This document shows positions 1-8,682 of a stretch of DNA of 8,682 nt, piece after piece. The stretch is taken from IMG/VR virus record IMGVR_UViG_2734482774_000009; one strand, written 5' to 3'. The notes under the pieces are model-generated. The model was not told where the DNA came from and searched no databases. It saw nothing but the letters and a program-made list of their open reading frames with translations. The stretch comes from a virus. Taxonomy: Duplodnaviria; Heunggongvirae; Uroviricota; Caudoviricetes. A program made the translations under genes and the position numbers. Each line of letters opens with the position of its first letter. Position 1 is the stretch's first letter.

Positions 1-153
1 ATGGCAAAGCCGATCATCACGCTCAATGGCCTAAAAATCGTCATTATGTTGGGAATGCTGGTCATTATTCTCTGCGGTATCCGTTTTGCCGCCGAGATCA
101 TCGTGCCGTTTATTCTCGCATTATTTATTGCTGTTATATATAACTTATTTTGA
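1..153 (+). pseudogene. tqsA: 5' fragment (50 codons) of an inner-membrane transporter gene, TqsA (AI-2 exporter)-like N-terminus; frame diverges after about codon 46 and stops at 151-153
   Basis: Hand translation: [45 protein letters not shown] then IYNLF-stop. Strongly hydrophobic, TM-helix-like. Identity to TqsA/YdgG is recalled, not searched. Sequence becomes AT-rich and non-coding immediately after, consistent with an insertion junction near 138-150. Confidence 0.45.
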
Positions 154-1363: not shown

Positions 1364-1906
1364 TTACTTGCCTTTCTTCTGTAGCAACTTTTCCGGTACG
1401 TTTCCGGTTGTTTCTTTCAAGTAATCAGCCAGTATCTGTGGGAGGTTGTCGGCAACTCTGGCACTGGCATTACAGGCTTTAACCACTTCCCTTTTAAGCC
1501 TGTCCAGCATGGCGGGGGTAATCTGTGGGAAGCTCCTTTGCATAGTAAGCGGGAGGCTGTCCATGATTGATGAAATCTGACTCGCCAGCTTTGAAAGCGC
1601 GTACAGGCAAAACTCAGTATCAATCACGTCACCGCGATCGCGCTCGTTTTTAAGTTCCTGCGCCTCCGCCTGTGCTGTCAGTAATCTGATCCTGACTCGT
1701 AAGAGTTCATCATCATCAATATCGCCTTTGTCGTTTGTAAGCTGGCTAATTGCATTGTTAACCCTATTGTCTATCACGCTGGCAACATCATAAAACGCCT
1801 CACGGCCTTTACGTTCAACGGGAGTCACTCCCCACTTGTCGAACGCTGTCGCACTTACACGGCAGCTTTTCGCCATGTTTTTTTTGTTCATCAGATGAGA
1901 TTTCAT
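1364..1906 (-). CDS. Terminase small subunit, lambda Nu1-like (180 aa)
   Basis: C-terminal two-thirds aligns closely by eye to lambda Nu1 (LTAQAEAQELKNERDRGDVIDTEFCLYALSKLASQISSIMDSLPLTMQRSFP versus lambda LTRAQADAQELKNARDSAEVVETAFCTFVLSRIAGEIASILDGLPLSVQRRFP); N-terminal HTH-like region is more diverged. Start ambiguous among ATGs at 1906, 1891 and 1876 (no strong Shine-Dalgarno for any); the MNKK start at 1891 aligns best with Nu1 MEVNKK. Confidence 0.85.
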   Translation of the reverse strand: MKSHLMNKKNMAKSCRVSATAFDKWGVTPVERKGREAFYDVASVIDNRVNNAISQLTNDKGDIDDDELLRVRIRLLTAQAEAQELKNERDRGDVIDTEFCLYALSKLASQISSIMDSLPLTMQRSFPQITPAMLDRLKREVVKACNASARVADNLPQILADYLKETTGNVPEKLLQKKGK

Positions 1907-2111: not shown

Positions 2112-2525
2112 TCAGATGGTTTTCAGTATGCGATCGATGTCGCCGTCATCGCCCTGGTTTCTGCCATCGTATGCCATGCCAGCTGATACGGCTTGCGGGC
2201 TGTGCATGTCCATAAAGTTTTCAAAGGCTGCGGTAAGTTCCGGCGCAACCTTCGGACGTTCCTGCTCTATGGTCATGCTAAGGATGCTTTTAGCCGTACC
2301 AACATCGATACAAGGCACGTTTGCCATTGCACGCAACAGCGGCTGATAGTCTTTATGCTCATGAAGCGCCATAATCGCATCAGCGCGCGGCTTGTCCTGC
2401 TCTTCCAGTTTGTTTAGTTGATATACGGCCTCATAGGTTGATAAACCTCTGTCAGCCATTGCCCGCGCTTCGGCTTTAAATTTACTCGCCAGCGGTAGCG
2501 TCATGATGCTTTCATTCGTTGCCAT
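2112..2525 (-). CDS. Hypothetical 137-aa protein, last gene of the capsid operon
   Basis: ATG at 2525 with GGGGGA Shine-Dalgarno; 12 bp downstream of the gpD-like stop. Acidic C-terminus (DDGDIDRILKTI). No family recognised. Confidence 0.6.
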   Translation of the reverse strand: MATNESIMTLPLASKFKAEARAMADRGLSTYEAVYQLNKLEEQDKPRADAIMALHEHKDYQPLLRAMANVPCIDVGTAKSILSMTIEQERPKVAPELTAAFENFMDMHSPQAVSAGMAYDGRNQGDDGDIDRILKTI

Positions 2526-2537
2526 CGTTCCCCCTGC

Positions 2538-2873
2538 TTATCGGGCCAGCGGCTGAACGGATACGCCGGAACCCGCAAAGGCGGCGCATTTTTTCGCATC
2601 GGTGTCGACGCTCTCAGGCCAGTTAACGGCGGCAATATTGAATATCCCCGTCTTGTAACACTGTGCTGATTTCTGCTTTGACGTGTCCACAGGGTACGAG
2701 GTCAGATAAACAGCCTTGCCAGATTCCTTACCATCCCACGGCTTAAACTCGCCATTGTCCGCCAGCATCAGCGGGGTAAATTCCTGAATAACGCCAGCAT
2801 CAGCGGCAAAATGTACCAGCGTCGTGGCGACCTGCTGACTGCCTGCAAATAACTCAATGTATGGAGTGTCCAT
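2538..2873 (-). CDS. Head decoration protein, lambda gpD-like (111 aa)
   Basis: Motifs shared with lambda gpD as recalled: TPLML(A/D), WDG, YK(T/S)G(I/T)F, WPE, KK(C/R)(A/T)AFAG; same length class (lambda D is 110 aa). GGGGGGA Shine-Dalgarno before ATG 2873. Confidence 0.85.
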   Translation of the reverse strand: MDTPYIELFAGSQQVATTLVHFAADAGVIQEFTPLMLADNGEFKPWDGKESGKAVYLTSYPVDTSKQKSAQCYKTGIFNIAAVNWPESVDTDAKKCAAFAGSGVSVQPLAR

Positions 2874-2885
2874 AGAATCCCCCCG

Positions 2886-3941
2886 TTAACCAATTTTGAC
2901 GGTAACAAATTTGCGAATATCTGCCGGTACCGGCTGCGGTGCACTGTGTGTCTGCACGTACTCAATCGCCGGATCGCCGTCCTCAATCCAGTTTTTCGGG
3001 TAAAACATGTTTTGTGTTGCGCCCGTTCTTACCGCTTCCTGATCCATTATCGCACCATAGGCCACCAGCCCTTTATTGTTGGTGTTGCCCAGAACCAGCA
3101 AATCAGGCTCAAGGAAATATTTTTCTGTGCCGTCGCTGTCAGCGTATTTGCCGGAATAGACGATAAGGGCAATATCGCCCAGATAGCCTTTAAAGCTCAC
3201 CACTTCGCCCAGGTTTTTACAGGCCAGTTCTGCGGCGGATTCTGAACCACGGGAAAGATCGTACAGCTCACGGAATTTTTTAAAGCTGCGTAACGTGCGC
3301 CATACCTCAGCGCCCATAATCATGACGTTTGCGGGGCAACCAGCCTGATCAGCATAAAGCTCGATGTCATAGATTGGGTCGTGCATCTCTTTATCCTGCT
3401 CGGACCATTTTTTACCCTTGCCCTGCTCTATGATGCAGTTTTCCGGTATTTTCCAGTCTATTTCATAGCGTTCTATGCCTTCGCCCTCAATAATGTTTTT
3501 TCCGGTCGTTATCGCATTCACCGCCAGCCATTCCACGCGCGCTTTAATGGCGTTTACCTGGCGGCGCATGTTGCCAGTAATCAGGCGCATACGTCGGTAG
3601 GTAGGGTCGTTAAGCTGTGCCGGATCTTCTCCAGCCATGCGCATGATGGTTTTTGTTGGATCGATTTCGTGCTTTGGCTTCATGTAGCCAGGTTTAATCG
3701 TGCTGGTTTCGTATCCTTTATCGCGCTGTACCTGGCTGCCAACCATAGGCGAACAAAACGCCGACATGGTGACTTCTTCAATGTCCAGGGTATCCAGCAT
3801 GATGTTTTGGGTGCTGAATGTCGCCACGTTCGGGAAAAACAGCGTGGTAAACAGCGGACTGAATTTAAATTCCGCAATATCCCCGCGATTCAGGTACGCA
3901 AAAAGCTGGTTAGTGTTAAGTGCCGTTGCTTTGCCTGCCAT
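2886..3941 (-). CDS. Major capsid protein, lambda gpE family (351 aa)
   Basis: Blocks matching lambda gpE as recalled: FKF(S/D)PLF, PGY(M/V)KPKHE(I/V), DP(T/A)YRR(M/R)R(L/I)I, VLGNT, YPKNW; similar length (lambda E is 341 aa). TAATG overlap with the upstream 68-aa gene; GGGGGTGA Shine-Dalgarno. Confidence 0.9.
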   Translation of the reverse strand: MAGKATALNTNQLFAYLNRGDIAEFKFSPLFTTLFFPNVATFSTQNIMLDTLDIEEVTMSAFCSPMVGSQVQRDKGYETSTIKPGYMKPKHEIDPTKTIMRMAGEDPAQLNDPTYRRMRLITGNMRRQVNAIKARVEWLAVNAITTGKNIIEGEGIERYEIDWKIPENCIIEQGKGKKWSEQDKEMHDPIYDIELYADQAGCPANVMIMGAEVWRTLRSFKKFRELYDLSRGSESAAELACKNLGEVVSFKGYLGDIALIVYSGKYADSDGTEKYFLEPDLLVLGNTNNKGLVAYGAIMDQEAVRTGATQNMFYPKNWIEDGDPAIEYVQTHSAPQPVPADIRKFVTVKIG

Positions 3942-5153: not shown

Positions 5154-5382
5154 CTCTACCCATCTACCCGAATGCTCATCATGTCAGTAATGGCGCGGCT
5201 TTCAGCGGGTAGATAGCTTTTTGAGCTCCTCTACCTGCCGTCTACCCTGCTACCTGAAACTGATAAAATCAGGTAGAAGAGGTAGAGAGCTTTTATTAGC
5301 CTTCTACCTGGCCCTCTACCCACTTATCATGTTGAATAATATGTATTTATTTCATTCAGGTAGATGGGGTAGAGGGCTTTTA
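5154..5382. repeat. Putative replication origin: iteron array plus AT-rich segment
   Basis: At least 11 copies of the hexamer core TCTACC / GGTAGA in both orientations within about 225 bp, where about 4 would be expected by chance in the whole window. Three extended copies GGTAGA-nnGCTTTT at about 5208, 5281 and 5368. AT-rich stretch at 5326-5357. Lies immediately downstream of the primase stop (5390). Confidence 0.65.
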
Positions 5383-5389
5383 CAAAAAA

Positions 5390-7138
5390 TTATAAAAACG
5401 CGTCGCAATCGTCTGTTGTAATTGCGTTGGTCTGCGTTACTCCCTTAACTTTTCGCGTAATATATTCATGCCCGTAAACTTTCGCCGCTGGCTTCATGGC
5501 CTTGCTGAACTCAGCCACGTTTAGCGGTTTGCTCCTGCCTGCGTATGCCATAAACGCCAGATAGACGCGGTAAAGGCTGTTCCTGGTCGTGTACTTCACT
5601 GAATCACCACCGCCACCCATCATCAGGCCGCGCGCTTCCTCCAGAAAATTCAGGAACTGGCAAAACTCAATAACCGGATCCGTCTGTTGCTTTATTGCCA
5701 GTGCTTCATCACCGTCACGCTGTTCCAGTAGTAAAGCCCTCGCCTTTTCAGGGTCGGTAAAGTTCGCCAGCAAGCGGCGGATAATAACGGGGATTTCAGC
5801 CGCAATTTTTTCCGGTAGTTCCCTGTCTTTTTCGGCCTCACTAACAATATTGTCGAAACGGAAAATCACGCGACGACGTGCCACACCTCCGGCCCGTTCG
5901 GTGAATATCATCGGGTTATTATTGGTCGCCAGCACCACCGCCCTGATTACCGCCGTGAAACGCTTTTCATATTTCGGGTTTATTTCCACGGGGTCGCCGC
6001 CCGTGATTTTCTTGATGCCCGTTCCTTCGCCTGTATATTTCGGCTGGTCTGCCAGGACGATAAGACGACTCCCGACAACCTGCGCACGTCCACCAGCATC
6101 ATCAAGCGATGTCATTTCAGCGCTTACCGTGTTCTGTTTCCCTGCCAGAAGGCTGGCTATGTGTGTGAATGTACTTTTACCGCTCCCGCCGTCTCCGGTG
6201 GCCTCAATAAACATCTGCCAGTCGTACCGGTTCGCCATAATCATGTACAGCGCGGCACATATACGCATCATCTTGCGCGGGTCTTTTCCGGCTGCGTGAT
6301 CAAGCCATTTATGAAAGTTTGGCGCGTTGTCGCGGATATTCTCCCCTGGTGCTGGTGGCGTGTATTCAATGCCGTTGTGCGTGGTGATCCAGTTCTCCGG
6401 CGTGTGCGGGGAAAATTCCCCTGTTTTCAGGTCAAGCGCACCATTGGCGAACGGCAACAAATCGCCGGACGGCTCGCCCATTGGTTCGGCAATAACTTTT
6501 AATGCTTCCACGGCGTTATTGATTACGCGCTTGCTGAAAGTGGCCCTGTGCTCTGAATAGATCGCCACCATTTCGCGGCTAAGTTCCATTGTGCTGACCG
6601 GACACCATACCCCGCCGCGCCATACGTGAACGATTTCACTTTCCGGATGCACACAAACGCCATCAAATCGACCAGCAAGCATCTGTGCGCGCTCACTGTC
6701 TGCCATTTGTGCCAGTTGCGTATTTTTCTGCTCCGGCATGGTAAGCCCTGCGGCAATATTTTCACGCTCAGCATTCAGATAGCGCCGCCAGTTTTCACAC
6801 TTCTGGACGTGCATTCCTTCGTGGTAAAAATTTGCGTCCTGAATATCTGCCGCCGCCAGCTTCTGACCAATCTTTTTGGTCTCCACTAAATCCAGTTCTC
6901 CGGCCTGGTACAGCCTTACGCGCTTTTTCCCATCCGGAACAATTTTCAGCGCATCAAGTTCGGCAAGCTGCTTTGGCCCAAGCCACACAGGCGGCACATT
7001 ATCGCCGGATGCGGGGCCATCCTGCTCCTGCCATTGTTTCGCGTGCGACCAGGCATCACTACCCGCAAAGATAATTACCTCTGTGTCTTTGTGTTTTATT
7101 CCGCGTGGCTGTTTTTTTACGTTCGGTGCCAGTTTCAT
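5390..7138 (-). CDS. Replication initiator: P4-type primase/helicase (582 aa)
   Basis: Walker A ATGDGGSGKSTF and Walker-B-like LIVLADQ in the C-terminal half, with an N-terminal primase-like region, as in P4 alpha / PICI Pri-Rep-type proteins (recalled). AGGGG Shine-Dalgarno; ATGA overlap with the upstream 99-aa gene. Confidence 0.85.
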   Translation of the reverse strand: MKLAPNVKKQPRGIKHKDTEVIIFAGSDAWSHAKQWQEQDGPASGDNVPPVWLGPKQLAELDALKIVPDGKKRVRLYQAGELDLVETKKIGQKLAAADIQDANFYHEGMHVQKCENWRRYLNAERENIAAGLTMPEQKNTQLAQMADSERAQMLAGRFDGVCVHPESEIVHVWRGGVWCPVSTMELSREMVAIYSEHRATFSKRVINNAVEALKVIAEPMGEPSGDLLPFANGALDLKTGEFSPHTPENWITTHNGIEYTPPAPGENIRDNAPNFHKWLDHAAGKDPRKMMRICAALYMIMANRYDWQMFIEATGDGGSGKSTFTHIASLLAGKQNTVSAEMTSLDDAGGRAQVVGSRLIVLADQPKYTGEGTGIKKITGGDPVEINPKYEKRFTAVIRAVVLATNNNPMIFTERAGGVARRRVIFRFDNIVSEAEKDRELPEKIAAEIPVIIRRLLANFTDPEKARALLLEQRDGDEALAIKQQTDPVIEFCQFLNFLEEARGLMMGGGGDSVKYTTRNSLYRVYLAFMAYAGRSKPLNVAEFSKAMKPAAKVYGHEYITRKVKGVTQTNAITTDDCDAFL

Positions 7139-7434
7139 TTTTTACCCCTGAATCCGTTAATCATGGTTTTCAGCTTCTGGATGTTTGCCCGTGCCCTGGC
7201 GTTGCTGGTGGGCACGTTATGCGGCGCGGTCTGTACCAGAGAAAAATCACGCCGGAACTGATAAACAGGCATCACGCAATCATATTCGTAACCTTCACGG
7301 CGGTAAGTTACGCACCGTCCCGCCACGCCCTTAATCATTACCGTGCCGCCGTACTGGTCGCGGTAAATATCACCGCGCGTAAATTTTGGGTGAGTGTTGC
7401 CACTGGCAGTTAAGCCAGAATATTTAAGTTTCAT
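7135..7434 (-). CDS. Hypothetical 99-aa protein, translationally coupled to the primase
   Basis: ATG 7434 with GGAGA upstream; stop overlaps the primase ATG. Confidence 0.55.
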   Translation of the reverse strand: MKLKYSGLTASGNTHPKFTRGDIYRDQYGGTVMIKGVAGRCVTYRREGYEYDCVMPVYQFRRDFSLVQTAPHNVPTSNARARANIQKLKTMINGFRGKK

Positions 7435-7439
7435 TATTT

Positions 7440-7667
7440 TTATTCTCCGGTGTGGGGCGCGTTATTATTTTCGTGAATTGCCATCGCCTTATCCAGTTCA
7501 TCAATTACAGGCGATAGTAATGTCTGAACGGCGGCAAGCATTAATGACGAAGATTCTTCTCCAGCTTCCGTTGCTTCAATTAATTTAATTAACAACGCAT
7601 TCATTTCGCGCGCTTTAATTAATGCGTTTTCAGAGTGGATTAATACTTCAAAAGGGATTTTATTCAT
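7440..7667 (-). CDS. Hypothetical 75-aa protein (predicted helical, acidic)
   Basis: Start chosen at internal ATG 7667 (AGAGGG Shine-Dalgarno, ATGAATAA overlap with upstream stop) rather than the track's 7712 start. Confidence 0.5.
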   Translation of the reverse strand: MNKIPFEVLIHSENALIKAREMNALLIKLIEATEAGEESSSLMLAAVQTLLSPVIDELDKAMAIHENNNAPHTGE

Positions 7668-7896
7668 GGCGTACCCTCTGAATATCTGCGGTAAGAATTT
7701 TACCTGCCTCATTCAGCGCCATATCAGCACTAAGTTGCATAACCGCCAGCGAATGAGGGACGAAAGCCCCGGCATATTCTGTTTCACTGGTGGCGTGCTT
7801 ATGCGCCCTGTCAGCAATAACAGAAATATCAATCAGCGCGTGCATCAGCGTAGTGAGCGCGGCGGCGGCTGCGTCCGGTGTGGTTTTATTGCACAT
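7660..7896 (-). CDS. Hypothetical 78-aa protein
   Basis: Start chosen at ATG 7896 with strong GGAGGGG Shine-Dalgarno; the longer track ORF (to 7953) lacks a Shine-Dalgarno and would overlap the upstream gene by 68 nt. Confidence 0.5.
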   Translation of the reverse strand: MCNKTTPDAAAAALTTLMHALIDISVIADRAHKHATSETEYAGAFVPHSLAVMQLSADMALNEAGKILTADIQRVRHE

Positions 7897-8119
7897 GGTG
7901 TACCCCTCCGCATTTTTTTTCGTTAGAAATAAGCGTTCTTCTTTCCTGTTCATCGCTCAGGAATACGCAGACCTCACCGCTAAGGCGTTTAAGTAAGCCG
8001 ATGATTGCCCCTGATTCGCTGTCGGTCATCATGCCAGGGTAATCCTCTGCCAGTGCGCAAATAACTTCGATTTGGTGGGCGCGTTCTGCTGCCTGCTGTA
8101 GTGTGATTTCCTGACTCAT
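7886..8119 (-). CDS. Hypothetical 77-aa protein
   Basis: Track ORF begins with a TTG at 8176; the internal ATG at 8119 has a GGGGG Shine-Dalgarno and an ATGA overlap with the upstream 64-aa gene stop. Confidence 0.5.
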   Translation of the reverse strand: MSQEITLQQAAERAHQIEVICALAEDYPGMMTDSESGAIIGLLKRLSGEVCVFLSDEQERRTLISNEKKCGGVHHVQ

Positions 8120-8310
8120 AAGCCTACCCCCTGACGAATACGGGCGGCGAATACAGCCACACAACCGGACGGGCAACGGCTACGCGCTTCGCGTTCCGTC
8201 CAGGCGGTGACGTGGATGATTTGAGATTCTCCGGCACTCAGGGCCAGAAAACGCCACACAAAGGCAGTTTGTGTGTGTACAAGGTGTGGTATATGATTTA
8301 CGGCAACCAT
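8116..8310 (-). CDS. Hypothetical 64-aa protein, first gene of the replication operon
   Basis: ATG 8310 with GAGGAG Shine-Dalgarno at good spacing; no family recognised (not AlpA-like, no Ogr/Delta zinc-finger pattern). Confidence 0.5.
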   Translation of the reverse strand: MVAVNHIPHLVHTQTAFVWRFLALSAGESQIIHVTAWTEREARSRCPSGCVAVFAARIRQGVGL

Positions 8311-8377
8311 AACGGCTCCTCGTTTACGTTGTTGGTTAGAAGCCCCGTTACTGCTCCTACAGTGCGGGGTTTCGTCG

Positions 8378-8473
8378 TTTCAACACCTTGCCTAAATAAG
8401 GTGTTGAACACCAATTTAAATCGAGGTGTTAAACACGTCAAGTGTTGAACACTTATTTTTTTTCCTGCATACT
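8378..8473. promoter_or_regulatory. Divergent control region with three 11-bp palindromic operators GTGTT(G/A)AACAC and a half-site
   Basis: Sites at 8401-8411, 8426-8436, 8442-8452, plus half-site caacacc at about 8381-8387. Candidate plus-strand promoter: -35 TTGAAC (8445-8450, inside operator 3), 17-bp spacer, -10 CATACT (8468-8473). Confidence 0.55.
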
Positions 8474-8502: not shown

Positions 8503-8682
8503 ATGGCGACAAAAGCAGTAAACGCAAAATCACAAACAGTTGCGGCAAGGGTTCCACATGAAGTTATGAACAATGTTGAGGCGGTAAAAATGCCCGGCGA
8601 AAGTACAGGGCAGTTTGTTACAGCTGCATTAAAGCGGGAAGTTGAATACCGCCAGCGTCGCAAGGCCAAAGAATCAGAATAA
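8503..8682 (+). CDS. Small DNA-binding regulator, ribbon-helix-helix (Arc/CopG-like) candidate, 59 aa
   Basis: ATG 8503 with GAGGGG Shine-Dalgarno 8 nt upstream (track ORF starts at a GTG at 8494). Pattern TVAARVPHEV (beta-strand) - MNNVEAV (helix) - G - STGQFVTAALKREV (helix) fits an RHH fold; basic C-terminal tail. Only gene transcribed away from the minus-strand operons. Confidence 0.5.
   Translation: MATKAVNAKSQTVAARVPHEVMNNVEAVKMPGESTGQFVTAALKREVEYRQRRKAKESE

What the first reader, a model, noticed from the sequence alone, without database searches (positions are those of the whole stretch)
7135..8310. Five translationally coupled small ORFs of unknown function precede the primase
Five ORFs (64, 77, 78, 75 and 99 aa) each have a credible Shine-Dalgarno site and overlap their neighbour's stop codon, so they are likely real genes, yet none resembles AlpA, Ogr/Delta, Sid, Psu or other satellite proteins I can recognise. 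In satellites this position typically holds derepression, helper-interference or replication-accessory functions, and small proteins here have repeatedly turned out to be helper late-gene manipulators or anti-phage factors. This is the most likely place in the window for undescribed biology at the protein level.
Basis: inference. Interest (0 to 1): 0.6.

Follow-up and report, generated by a model that had tools for sequence, protein, structure and literature searches.

The report
PICI early-operon small genes, partly known
The five small genes are real, but they are the standard early genes of a well-known E. coli phage satellite (an EcCICFT073-type PICI): one resembles a known cell-division blocker, one is the published regulator RgdR, and three are conserved but still uncharacterised.

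Summary
Five minus-strand ORFs (64, 77, 78, 75 and 99 aa) run head to tail into the primase. Four of the five junctions overlap; ORF4/ORF5 has a 5-nt gap. All five are conserved, with dN/dS below 1 (weakly tested for ORF2).

The "unknown, unlike any satellite protein" reading is only partly right. The window is an 11-kb EcCICFT073/ED1a-class PICI inserted in tqsA, and every ORF has a counterpart in EcCICFT073.
- ORF1 is an Icd-like protein: NF033153 at 64.7 bits, and 41% identity to P1 Icd across its FtsZ-inhibiting core.
- ORF5 is an RgdR orthologue: DUF4222, 91% identical to functional C1493, RGD at residues 20–22. RgdR is a published LEE/motility regulator.
- ORFs 2–4 are small acidic proteins in PHROGs of unknown function; ORF3 models as a helical hairpin.

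Across 11 islands, the Icd-like gene is always first and the ORF4 family is always present. ORF4-family–RgdR sits directly before the replicase in 10 of 11. ORF2 and ORF3 families are optional inserts.

An ECOR61 operon that matches a sister variant by gene sizes and overlaps causes growth arrest when a phage accessory gene is expressed. The RgdR model has a Tudor/SH3-like barrel plus a basic helix.

Verdict: a new mosaic member of a known kind, of modest interest.

The parts
8413..8441 (-). Sigma-70-like promoter of the operon (TTGACG, 17 nt spacer, TAAATT)
   Evidence: Consensus scan, 9 of 12 matches. The TTGAC element is conserved across islands. It is a prediction only.
8379..8452 (.). Three to four GTGTTnAACAC palindromes, probably operators, overlapping the promoter and lying between the operon and the divergent YlcI/YnfO gene
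   Evidence: Direct and inverted repeats. The sequences differ between islands. The binding protein has not been identified.
8339..8373 (-). Conserved leader hairpin (GAAACCCCGCACUG-UAGGAG-CAGUAACGGGGCUUC) followed by CUUCUAACC
   Evidence: Conserved in all islands aligned although the upstream region diverges (8 were folded, 9 aligned). One pair shows a compensatory change in 3 of 8 sequences. The 112-nt leader folds with z = -3.4. No Rfam family matches.
8116..8310 (-). ORF1, 64 aa: Icd-like protein, the first cistron
   Evidence: NCBIfam NF033153 at 5.6e-18, 64.7 bits against a cut-off of 25. BLASTP to P1 Icd gives 41% over 46 aa, E 9e-8, covering P1 residues 8-50. Identical over 62 aa to Sakai ECs1577. 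First gene in 11 of 11 islands.
7886..8119 (-). ORF2, 77 aa: acidic protein, phrog_1478 family (family E), an optional cassette gene
   Evidence: phrog_1478 at 3e-28. 100% identical over 74 aa to CFT073 C_RS06960 and 53% to Sakai ECs1579. Relatives lie in the early-left operons of Fels-1 and Klebsiella prophages. Present in 6 of 11 islands. pI 5.0.
7913..7920 (-). A8 homopolymer run at the 3' end of ORF2
   Evidence: In JNE131328 the ORF2 and ORF3 frames are fused into one 171-aa ORF, with the frame changing at this run. The one-base difference is inferred from the protein sequences; the DNA was not aligned.
7660..7896 (-). ORF3, 78 aa: predicted two-helix hairpin, phrog_5146 (family D), an optional and mosaic cassette gene
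   Evidence: phrog_5146 at 3e-36. 248 homologue clusters were found; all 120 listed are Escherichia and none carries a functional name. The first 24 aa are identical to the CFT073 homologue, after which the sequences diverge. AF2 model: helices 7-38 and 46-77, pLDDT 68. No fold or sequence match to solved structures. Present in 8 of 11 islands.
7440..7667 (-). ORF4, 75 aa: acidic protein (helical character inferred from sequence only, not modelled), phrog_2196 (family B), a core gene that always precedes RgdR or the replicase
   Evidence: phrog_2196 at 3e-10. Present in 11 of 11 islands. An exhaustive HMMER scan of 1.84e9 representatives finds only 14 clusters. dN/dS 0.21-0.29 in close comparisons. 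pI 4.75.
7135..7434 (-). ORF5, 99 aa: RgdR orthologue (DUF4222), translationally coupled to the primase by an ATGA overlap
5390..7138 (-). Pri-Rep primase/helicase, 582 aa, the last large gene of the operon
   Evidence: D5_N, DUF5906 and Pox_D5 domains, P4-family primase_Cterm. 90% identical to EcCICFT073 Pri-Rep. Its N-terminal domain of about 140 aa is shared with the DUF927 and RepA-type replicases of sister islands.
8503..8682 (+). Divergent YlcI/YnfO-family gene, a candidate regulator of the operon
   Evidence: NF041551 at 2.4e-16. Found in the same divergent position in all E. coli islands examined.

Best explanation
The five ORFs are the promoter-proximal genes of the early (replication) operon of an EcCICFT073/ED1a-class phage-inducible chromosomal island inserted in tqsA.

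Shown:
- They are conserved coding genes, joined by overlapping or near-abutting stop and start codons, that run straight into the pri-rep gene.
- ORF1 is a member of the Icd-like family and keeps the segment that in P1 Icd is sufficient to bind FtsZ and block division.
- ORF5 is an orthologue of RgdR. RgdR is a small basic protein that binds DNA without specificity in vitro, activates the LEE1 promoter and represses motility.
- The Icd-like gene is always first, and ORF4-family plus RgdR lie immediately before the replicase.
- ORF2 and ORF3 belong to optional, recombining cassette families.

Inferred:
- When a helper phage induces the island (through AlpA and relief of repression at the GTGTTnAACAC operators), the operon is transcribed as one message. 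Ribosomes are passed from cistron to cistron, giving fixed ratios.
- ORF1 arrests cell division by acting on FtsZ while the island replicates.
- RgdR, modelled as a Tudor/SH3-like barrel with a basic C-terminal helix, acts as a DNA- and possibly RNA-polymerase-associated modulator. Its effects on LEE and flagella would be side effects of a primary role in the island's own cycle.
- ORF4 partners with RgdR and/or the shared N-terminal domain of the replicase.
- The acidic ORF2 and ORF3 proteins are protein-binding accessory factors directed at helper or host proteins.
For: Island identity:
- Near-identical islands carry integrase, AlpA (PF05930, 5e-18), YlcI/YnfO, this operon, SSB, capsid, decoration protein and a Nu1-like TerS, all inserted in tqsA.
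- The primase is 90% identical to EcCICFT073 Pri-Rep, and every small ORF has an EcCICFT073 counterpart.

Coding and coupling.

ORF1:
- NF033153 at 64.7 bits.
- 41% identity to P1 Icd over residues 8-50, with WRF, TE-EAR and AR invariant.
- P1 Icd residues 12-51 bind FtsZ and block division (PMC11897509).
- P1 icd also overlaps its downstream gene by ATGA.

ORF5:
- DUF4222 at 82.1 bits.
- 91% identical to C1493, which complements an rgdR mutant (PMC3378721).
- 'Encoded by all the analysed E. coli PICIs' (PMC6092414).
- One RefSeq record names the gene rgdR.

Cassette grammar across 11 islands. Shared replicase N-terminal domain.

Functional precedent: an ECOR61 operon of an Icd-like gene, 186-nt and 192-nt genes and further genes including a primase, six genes in all, is needed for growth arrest triggered by phage gene orf24. 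Its gene sizes and overlaps match the Sakai/RMDEC364 variant, in which the 192-nt gene is the ORF2 homologue.
Against: - No function was tested here; every mechanistic step is inference from homology or fold.
- ORF1 is only 41% identical to P1 Icd. It lacks P1's C-terminal 22 residues and the upstream C4 antisense RNA.
- PHROG labels the related families 'transcriptional repressor', which is an alternative role.
- The R of RGD is not conserved in the family.
- The alignments used for modelling are shallow (74% identity or more), and the ORF3 model is of low confidence.
- The ECOR61 contig could not be fetched, so the link rests on matching gene sizes, overlaps and annotation.
- Transposon hits in promoter-proximal genes may act by polarity.
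- alpA and int lie outside the window and are seen only in sister islands.
Confidence: 0.75

Rival explanations
1. The small-ORF block, or at least ORF1 with the variable ORF2/ORF3 genes, is primarily an anti-phage module. It would sense a protein from an infecting, non-helper phage and respond with division arrest or cell death.
For: In ECOR61, an operon that by gene sizes and overlaps is a sister variant causes growth arrest when phage accessory gene orf24 is expressed, and removing the Icd-like gene abolishes the effect. The ORF2 and ORF3 families are optional, mosaic and fast-evolving, with dN/dS up to 0.6-0.7 and an abrupt recombination junction in ORF3. ORF2 relatives sit among the early accessory genes of temperate phages.
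Against: None of the five proteins hits PADLOC. The ECOR61 effect needed all six genes including the primase and was muted when reconstituted. That fits accidental induction of the island, because uncontrolled EcCICFT073 replication by itself impairs growth (PMC6092414). The Icd-like gene, ORF4 family and RgdR are near-universal core genes in a fixed position, as expected of life-cycle functions.
Confidence: 0.2
2. ORF5/RgdR, and perhaps its neighbours, is a virulence or host-adaptation cargo gene (a moron) that regulates host LEE and flagellar genes, and has no role in the island's own cycle.
For: RgdR activates LEE1 and T3S, represses motility and contributes to colonisation phenotypes (PMC3378721; PMC10877973). 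The PICI literature lists it among accessory virulence genes.
Against: It is present in 10 of the 11 islands sampled, including LEE-negative UPEC, commensal and Nissle-derived strains. It always lies immediately upstream of the replicase and overlaps it by ATGA, whereas PICI cargo genes normally sit at the island ends. It binds control DNA as well as LEE1 DNA.
Confidence: 0.25
3. ORFs 2-4 have no function as proteins. They are relics or 'spacer' cistrons whose translation merely delivers ribosomes to the primase gene.
For: They are tiny, have no Pfam or NCBIfam family, vary in number from 2 to 5 between islands, and one of them is fused or frameshifted in some genomes.
Against: dN/dS is below 1, with invariant cores such as the ORF3 segment HKHATSETEYAGAFVPHSLAVMQ. 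The ORF4 family is present in 11 of 11 islands. ORF2 is conserved at 38-53% identity in other islands and in phages.
Confidence: 0.07

Closest known systems
EcCICFT073 (and EcCIED1a) Gram-negative PICIs: the alpA-to-pri-rep early region (Fillol-Salom et al. 2018, PMC6092414)
   Same: Same architecture: int, AlpA, divergent YlcI/YnfO, Icd-like gene, small ORFs, DUF4222/RgdR, Pri-Rep, SSB, capsid and decoration homologues, Nu1-like TerS. The primase is 90% identical, ORF5 91% and ORF2 100% over 74 aa. The ED1a island uses the same ydgD-ydgG(tqsA) site.
   Different: EcCICFT073 is integrated next to roxA/phoQ and has one extra small ORF (family F). Its ORF1, ORF3 and ORF4 counterparts are only 49%, 50% and 37% identical. 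No complete genome in the collection carries this exact combination.
RgdR / ECs1581 of EHEC O157:H7 O-island 51 (Flockhart et al. 2012, PMC3378721)
   Same: 99 aa, DUF4222, RGD at residues 20-22, basic (pI about 10), and located directly upstream of the island primase. ORF5 is 78% identical to ECs1581 and 91% to the functionally interchangeable C1493.
   Different: The activity of this allele is untested. It carries A10 and R45, unlike ECs1581. In the family as a whole the R of RGD varies. Sakai Sp7 carries a full capsid module and a DUF927 replicase.
Bacteriophage P1 Icd, an FtsZ-binding division inhibitor in the immI operon
   Same: Sequence similarity over the functional core (41% over 46 aa). 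The same small size, the same position as the first cistron, and the same ATGA overlap with the next gene.
   Different: There is no C4 antisense RNA upstream. The downstream gene is not an antirepressor. The C-terminal third of P1 Icd is absent. FtsZ binding by the PICI protein has never been tested.
ECOR61 'prophage-encoded superinfection exclusion system' (Silas et al. preprint, 10.1101/2023.04.06.535777)
   Same: An Icd-like gene followed by overlapping small genes and a DNA primase, six genes in all. The gene sizes and overlaps equal those of the Sakai/RMDEC364 variant of this operon, and its 192-nt gene corresponds to the ORF2 family.
   Different: The ECOR61 Icd-like protein has an N-terminal extension (122 aa). 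The cassette there is A-G-E-B-C rather than A-E-D-B-C. The ECOR61 sequence itself could not be compared here.
P4 left operon: small proteins (Eps, Orf151, Cnr) preceding the alpha primase
   Same: A satellite early operon in which small regulatory or helper-directed proteins precede and are co-expressed with the primase (my own knowledge of P4). P4-like elements also carry an Icd-like gene between alpA and the primase (ECOR15 entry).
   Different: No sequence similarity between ORFs 2-5 and P4 proteins was detected in any library search. The PICI literature reports that only Int, AlpA and Pri-Rep are distantly shared with P4.

Membership tests
Gram-negative PICI (EcCICFT073 class) | Integrase and a specific chromosomal attachment site not used by prophages | tested here: met
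   Window 1-153 encodes the TqsA N-terminus. Sister islands (98.5% identical over 91% of the window) are bounded by split tqsA and carry a tyrosine integrase. The integrase itself lies outside the window.
Gram-negative PICI (EcCICFT073 class) | AlpA-family regulator next to int | tested here: met
   PF05930 at 5e-18 for the HTH gene in the sister island. It lies outside the window.
Gram-negative PICI (EcCICFT073 class) | Own pri-rep replication gene | tested here: met
   Window 5390-7138 has D5_N, DUF5906 and P4 primase_Cterm domains and is 90% identical to EcCICFT073 Pri-Rep.
Gram-negative PICI (EcCICFT073 class) | About 10-15 kb in size and lacking lysis and tail genes | tested here: met
   The island in JNE181771 is about 11 kb and carries only capsid and decoration homologues, a connector-like gene and a Nu1-like TerS.
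Gram-negative PICI (EcCICFT073 class) | Induction, packaging and transfer by a helper phage | not testable with these tools
   This requires lysogen induction and transduction assays.
Icd-like (NF033153; prototype P1 Icd) | Match to the family model above its curated cut-off | tested here: met
   64.7 bits against a cut-off of 25, E 5.6e-18.
Icd-like (NF033153; prototype P1 Icd) | Direct similarity to P1 Icd across the FtsZ-inhibiting core (residues 12-51) | tested here: met
   BLASTP 41% over 46 aa, E 9e-8, covering P1 residues 8-50. W-R-F, TE-EAR, P and AR are invariant.
Icd-like (NF033153; prototype P1 Icd) | Binds FtsZ and blocks Z-ring formation | not testable with these tools
   This needs expression and microscopy, or two-hybrid assays. 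It is known only for P1 Icd (PMC11897509).
P1 immI-type regulation of icd | C4/CI-type antisense RNA upstream of icd | tested here: not met
   No Rfam hit to C4 or any other family at E up to 10 in the leader. A different conserved hairpin is present.
RgdR / DUF4222 (PF13973) | DUF4222 domain above Pfam's gathering score | tested here: met
   82.1 bits against 27, E 2.1e-23, covering the full profile 1-53.
RgdR / DUF4222 (PF13973) | Orthology to the tested proteins ECs1581 and C1493 (99 aa, same genomic position) | tested here: met
   78% and 91% identity over all 99 aa. The gene lies directly upstream of the primase in every island that carries it.
RgdR / DUF4222 (PF13973) | RGD tripeptide at residues 20-22, linked to T3S activation | tested here: met
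   R20-G21-D22 are present (sequence). Across the family, however, R20 varies (R/P/N/H/S) while G21 and D22 are invariant.
RgdR / DUF4222 (PF13973) | Activates LEE1/T3S and represses motility | not testable with these tools
   This requires reporter and motility assays.
Known anti-phage defence systems (PADLOC-DB) | Any of the five proteins matches a defence-system model | tested here: not met
   No families at E up to 1 for any of the five or for YlcI/YnfO.
RNAP-binding Tudor-like domains (UvrD/PcrA CTD, CarD RID) | Tudor/SH3-like five-stranded barrel | tested here: inconclusive

The most novel reading that the evidence does not exclude
The invariant trio of Icd-like gene, ORF4 family and RgdR could be a conserved PICI host-takeover and sensing module. 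In this reading, RgdR is a 'mini-CarD': a Tudor-like barrel that docks on RNA polymerase plus a basic DNA-binding helix, which reprograms host and helper transcription. ORF4 would be its acidic partner or antagonist. The Icd-like protein would freeze division through FtsZ. Because foreign phage proteins can trip the operon (as orf24 does in ECOR61), the same module would double as an abortive-infection switch, with the ORF2/ORF3 cassette setting which phages are sensed.
Probability: 0.12. Interest if true: 0.65.

Novelty: new member of a known kind. Interest (0 to 1): 0.3.

Why it matters
This operon, in mosaic variants, is present in about a quarter of complete E. coli genomes (1,410 of 5,426), including EHEC, UPEC and Nissle-derived strains.

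Its genes are drawn as blank 'hypothetical' boxes in the PICI literature. Yet one of them (RgdR) changes virulence-gene expression, and a sister operon can arrest growth in response to a phage protein.

Three observations give concrete, cheap experiments for a part of PICI biology that has been skipped:
- An Icd-like FtsZ-inhibitor homologue heads every such operon.
- RgdR has a Tudor-like fold and is always coupled to the replicase.
- ORF4 is a universal core gene with almost no relatives elsewhere.

The finding itself, however, does not reveal a new kind of system.

Tried and rejected
- C4/CI-type antisense RNA upstream of the Icd-like gene, by analogy with P1 and P4: no Rfam hit in the whole window at E up to 1, nor in the leader alone at E up to 10.
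- Paralogy between ORF3 and ORF4 (ORF2 was not compared): hhalign probability 0.7%, rejected.
- Known defence systems: no PADLOC hit.
- Sequence relatives among solved structures for ORF2, ORF3, ORF4, ORF5 and the Icd-like alignment: only chance-level hits.
- ORF3 fold search against the PDB: no matches, and the model confidence is low.
- ORF5 against predicted viral structures: only uncharacterised or DUF1653 small barrels.
- The afdb50 library was unavailable.
- ORF3 and ORF4 in deposited phage genomes: no match. ORF1 matched only a 16.5-kb 'phage' that is itself a capsid-forming PICI.
With the RgdR alignment it returned only Shigella flexneri and E. albertii.
- Reading RGD as a discrete functional motif: weakened, because R20 is variable.
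- The EcCIMP1 and synthetic-PICI papers contain nothing on these genes.
- The ED1a genome was not in the collection.


Full report
**1. The observation**

They run head to tail into a 582-aa primase.
- ORF1/ORF2 and ORF5/primase share ATGA.
- ORF2/ORF3 overlap by 11 nt and ORF3/ORF4 by 8 nt.
- ORF4/ORF5 are separated by 5 nt and do not overlap.
- ORF1, ORF3, ORF4 and ORF5 have SD matches of 4-5 nt at 5-10 nt spacing. Only 14.5% of all ATGs in the window have such a match.
- ORF2 and the primase have only an AGG or a G-run. These are exactly the two ATGA junctions, which suggests termination-reinitiation coupling rather than independent initiation.

Evidence that the ORFs are coding genes:
- In close comparisons dN/dS is 0.06-0.31 for ORF1, 0.21-0.29 for ORF4, 0.28-0.51 for ORF5 and 0.31-0.62 for ORF3.
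- ORF2 has too few near relatives among the fetched loci for a meaningful ratio. It is, however, 100% identical over 74 aa to an annotated CFT073 protein, 51-53% identical to the Sakai and RMDEC364 proteins, and 38-41% identical to proteins of Fels-1 and Klebsiella prophages.
- RefSeq calls the same frames and starts.

**2. What the window is**

Window 1-153 is the 5' end of tqsA. Sister islands (98.5% identical over 91% of the window) are 11-kb elements that split tqsA. They carry, in order: tyrosine integrase, AlpA (PF05930, 5e-18), a divergent YlcI/YnfO gene, this operon, SSB, lambda E/D-like capsid and decoration genes, and a Nu1-like small terminase.

EcCICFT073, the experimentally characterised archetype of Gram-negative PICIs, has the same order. 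Its primase is 90% identical to the window's. The related ED1a island sits at the same ydgD-ydgG(tqsA) site (PMC3378721). The element is therefore a classical E. coli PICI.

DNA related to the five-ORF stretch occurs in 1,410 of 5,426 complete E. coli genomes. Only 14 of them cover 80% or more of it, so the region is highly mosaic.

**3. The five proteins**

*ORF1* passes the NCBIfam Icd-like model (64.7 bits against a cut-off of 25).
- It aligns directly with phage P1 Icd: 41% over 46 aa, E 9e-8, covering P1 residues 8-50.
- P1 Icd residues 12-51 are sufficient to bind FtsZ and block division (PMC11897509).
- W-R-F, TE-EAR, P and A-R are invariant among P1 Icd and four PICI proteins.
- P1 icd is also a first cistron that overlaps its downstream gene by ATGA.
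- Unlike P1, no C4-type antisense RNA precedes the gene.

*ORF5* is DUF4222 (82.1 bits against 27), 99 aa long, with RGD at residues 20-22.
- It is 91% identical to C1493 and 78% to ECs1581. These are the two RgdR proteins shown to activate LEE1/T3S and repress motility. RgdR also bound control DNA in EMSA.
- One RefSeq genome already names the gene rgdR.
- In a 35-sequence alignment, R20 varies (R/P/N/H/S) while G21-D22 and the rest of the GDIYRD-YGG core are invariant. The tripeptide therefore looks like part of the fold, not a separate motif.

*ORF2, ORF3 and ORF4* hit only PHROGs of unknown function and no Pfam, NCBIfam or PADLOC model.
- They are acidic, with pI 5.0, 5.9 and 4.75.
- ORF3 models as a two-helix hairpin at pLDDT 68, with no structural match.
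- All listed ORF3 and ORF4 homologues are from Escherichia or Shigella, and none carries a functional name.
- An exhaustive HMMER scan with the ORF4 profile found only 14 clusters among 1.84 billion representatives.
- ORF3 and ORF4 are not paralogues.

**4. Operon grammar**

Small ORFs from 11 islands were classified by all-against-all BLASTP.
- The Icd-like gene is first in 11 of 11.
- The ORF4 family is present in 11 of 11, and DUF4222 in 10 of 11.
- These two always lie immediately before the replication gene.
- The ORF3 family (8 of 11), the ORF2 family (6 of 11) and four other families are optional inserts in a fixed order.
- ORF3 is identical to its CFT073 counterpart for 24 residues and then diverges sharply, which is the signature of recombination.
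- The replication gene is interchangeable: D5_N/DUF5906, DUF927 or AAA_25 RepA-like. All three share an N-terminal domain of about 115-140 aa at 41-53% identity.

So ORF1, ORF4 and ORF5 behave as core genes. ORF2 and ORF3 behave as accessory cassette genes.

**5. RgdR fold**

The AlphaFold2 model has a confident core at residues 21-70 (pLDDT about 90). It consists of five strands and a short helix, followed by helix 77-96. That tail has pI 12.

A barrel plus a basic helix recalls CarD. This would fit a small protein that stimulates a promoter yet binds DNA non-specifically. It is only a lead, because the fold is generic and sequence identity is 12-17%.

**6. Functional precedent for the whole operon**

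Silas et al. (preprint) found that phage accessory gene orf24 arrests the growth of ECOR61.
- Suppressor insertions fell in an Icd-like gene and two small genes.
- All six linked genes, including a primase, were needed for reconstitution.
- Removing the Icd-like gene abolished the effect.

Their table lists the hits as 366-, 186- and 192-nt genes that overlap by 8 nt and 1 nt. Those are exactly the sizes and overlaps of ECs1578 and ECs1579 in Sakai and of their RMDEC364 counterparts, where the 192-nt gene is the ORF2 homologue.

I infer that the ECOR61 'superinfection exclusion system' is a PICI early operon of the A-G-E-B-C-primase type. I could not fetch the contig to prove it. Polarity of the insertions is possible. 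So is accidental induction of the island: uncontrolled EcCICFT073 replication by itself harms growth.

**7. Regulation (outside the stated coordinates)**

- A sigma-70-like promoter at 8441-8413 on the minus strand is overlapped by three to four GTGTTnAACAC palindromes. These lie between the operon and the divergent YlcI/YnfO gene. This region differs between islands.
- The leader hairpin at 8373-8339 and the following CUUCUAACC are conserved in all islands aligned. One pair shows a compensatory C-G to G-C change in 3 of 8 sequences. The leader folds better than shuffled controls (z = -3.4). Its loop, UAGGAG, resembles the ORF1 SD. Its role is unknown.

**8. Verdict**

The ORFs are real and tightly coupled. 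They are the ordinary early genes of a known satellite family.
- Two of the five belong to named families that have experimental prototypes.
- All five are already in public protein families.
- Three of them (ORF2-4) remain without a described function.

The exact mosaic is new, but the kind of system is not. Residual interest lies in four places: the uncharacterised core gene ORF4, the Tudor-like fold of RgdR, the universal Icd-like first cistron (I found no open-access paper linking PICIs to a division inhibitor), and the likely identity of the ECOR61 system with this operon.

Noticed in passing
window 8339-8373 (minus strand), with 8330-8338: A conserved leader hairpin (CCCCGC-ACUG-UAGGAG-CAGU-A-CGGGG) followed by CUUCUAACC is kept in all islands aligned, although the promoter and operator region just upstream diverges. 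One stem pair shows a compensatory change. The loop mimics the ORF1 Shine-Dalgarno sequence. No Rfam family matches.
   Followed up: partly
window 8379-8452: Three to four GTGTTnAACAC palindromes overlap the predicted -35/-10 of the operon promoter, facing the divergent YlcI/YnfO gene (8503-8682). Operator sequences differ between islands, which suggests distinct immunity or repressor specificities. Published work on EcCICFT073 describes only AlpA activation and left the existence of a repressor open.
   Followed up: partly
window 7913-7920; L001 9641-10156: An A8 run lies at the 3' end of ORF2. In strain JNE131328 the ORF2 and ORF3 frames are fused into a single 171-aa ORF at this point, and PGAP then annotates only the ORF3 part. 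Several database 'long ORF3' proteins are similar read-through fusions. This could be sequencing error or homopolymer slippage.
   Followed up: partly
window 6719-7138 (primase residues 1-140); L010 95-1504; L002 6975-9119: Three unrelated replicase cores (D5_N/DUF5906, DUF927 and AAA_25 RepA-like) in sister islands all carry the same N-terminal domain of about 115-140 aa (41-53% identity, phrog_2850, unknown function). It lies directly after the conserved ORF4-RgdR pair.
   Followed up: partly
L007 (LR881103.1, 'Escherichia phage vB_KppS-Ant') 8578-11689: A 16.5-kb 'induced prophage' deposited as a phage is evidently a capsid-forming PICI. Its Icd-like domain forms the C-terminus of a 324-aa protein and is followed by an ORF4-family gene and a primase, with no DUF4222 gene. 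Icd-like domains with N-terminal extensions (122-155 aa) also occur in E. coli islands, sometimes as a second copy.
   Followed up: no
window 1364-1906 and 2112-3941 (minus strand): A Nu1-like small terminase homologue (PF07471, 2.3e-23) and lambda E/D-like capsid and decoration genes sit downstream, as in EcCICFT073, where the c1499 and c1500 deletions did not restore normal phage plaque formation. The function of the capsid and decoration homologues in this PICI class is still unexplained.
   Followed up: no
window 5297-5378 and 1210-1315: Two long hairpins give weak, sub-threshold Rfam hits to miRNA and lncRNA models. One lies just downstream of the primase stop, where PICI replication origins are reported to lie. 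These are probably structured intergenic DNA (ori or terminator), not the RNA families named.
   Followed up: no
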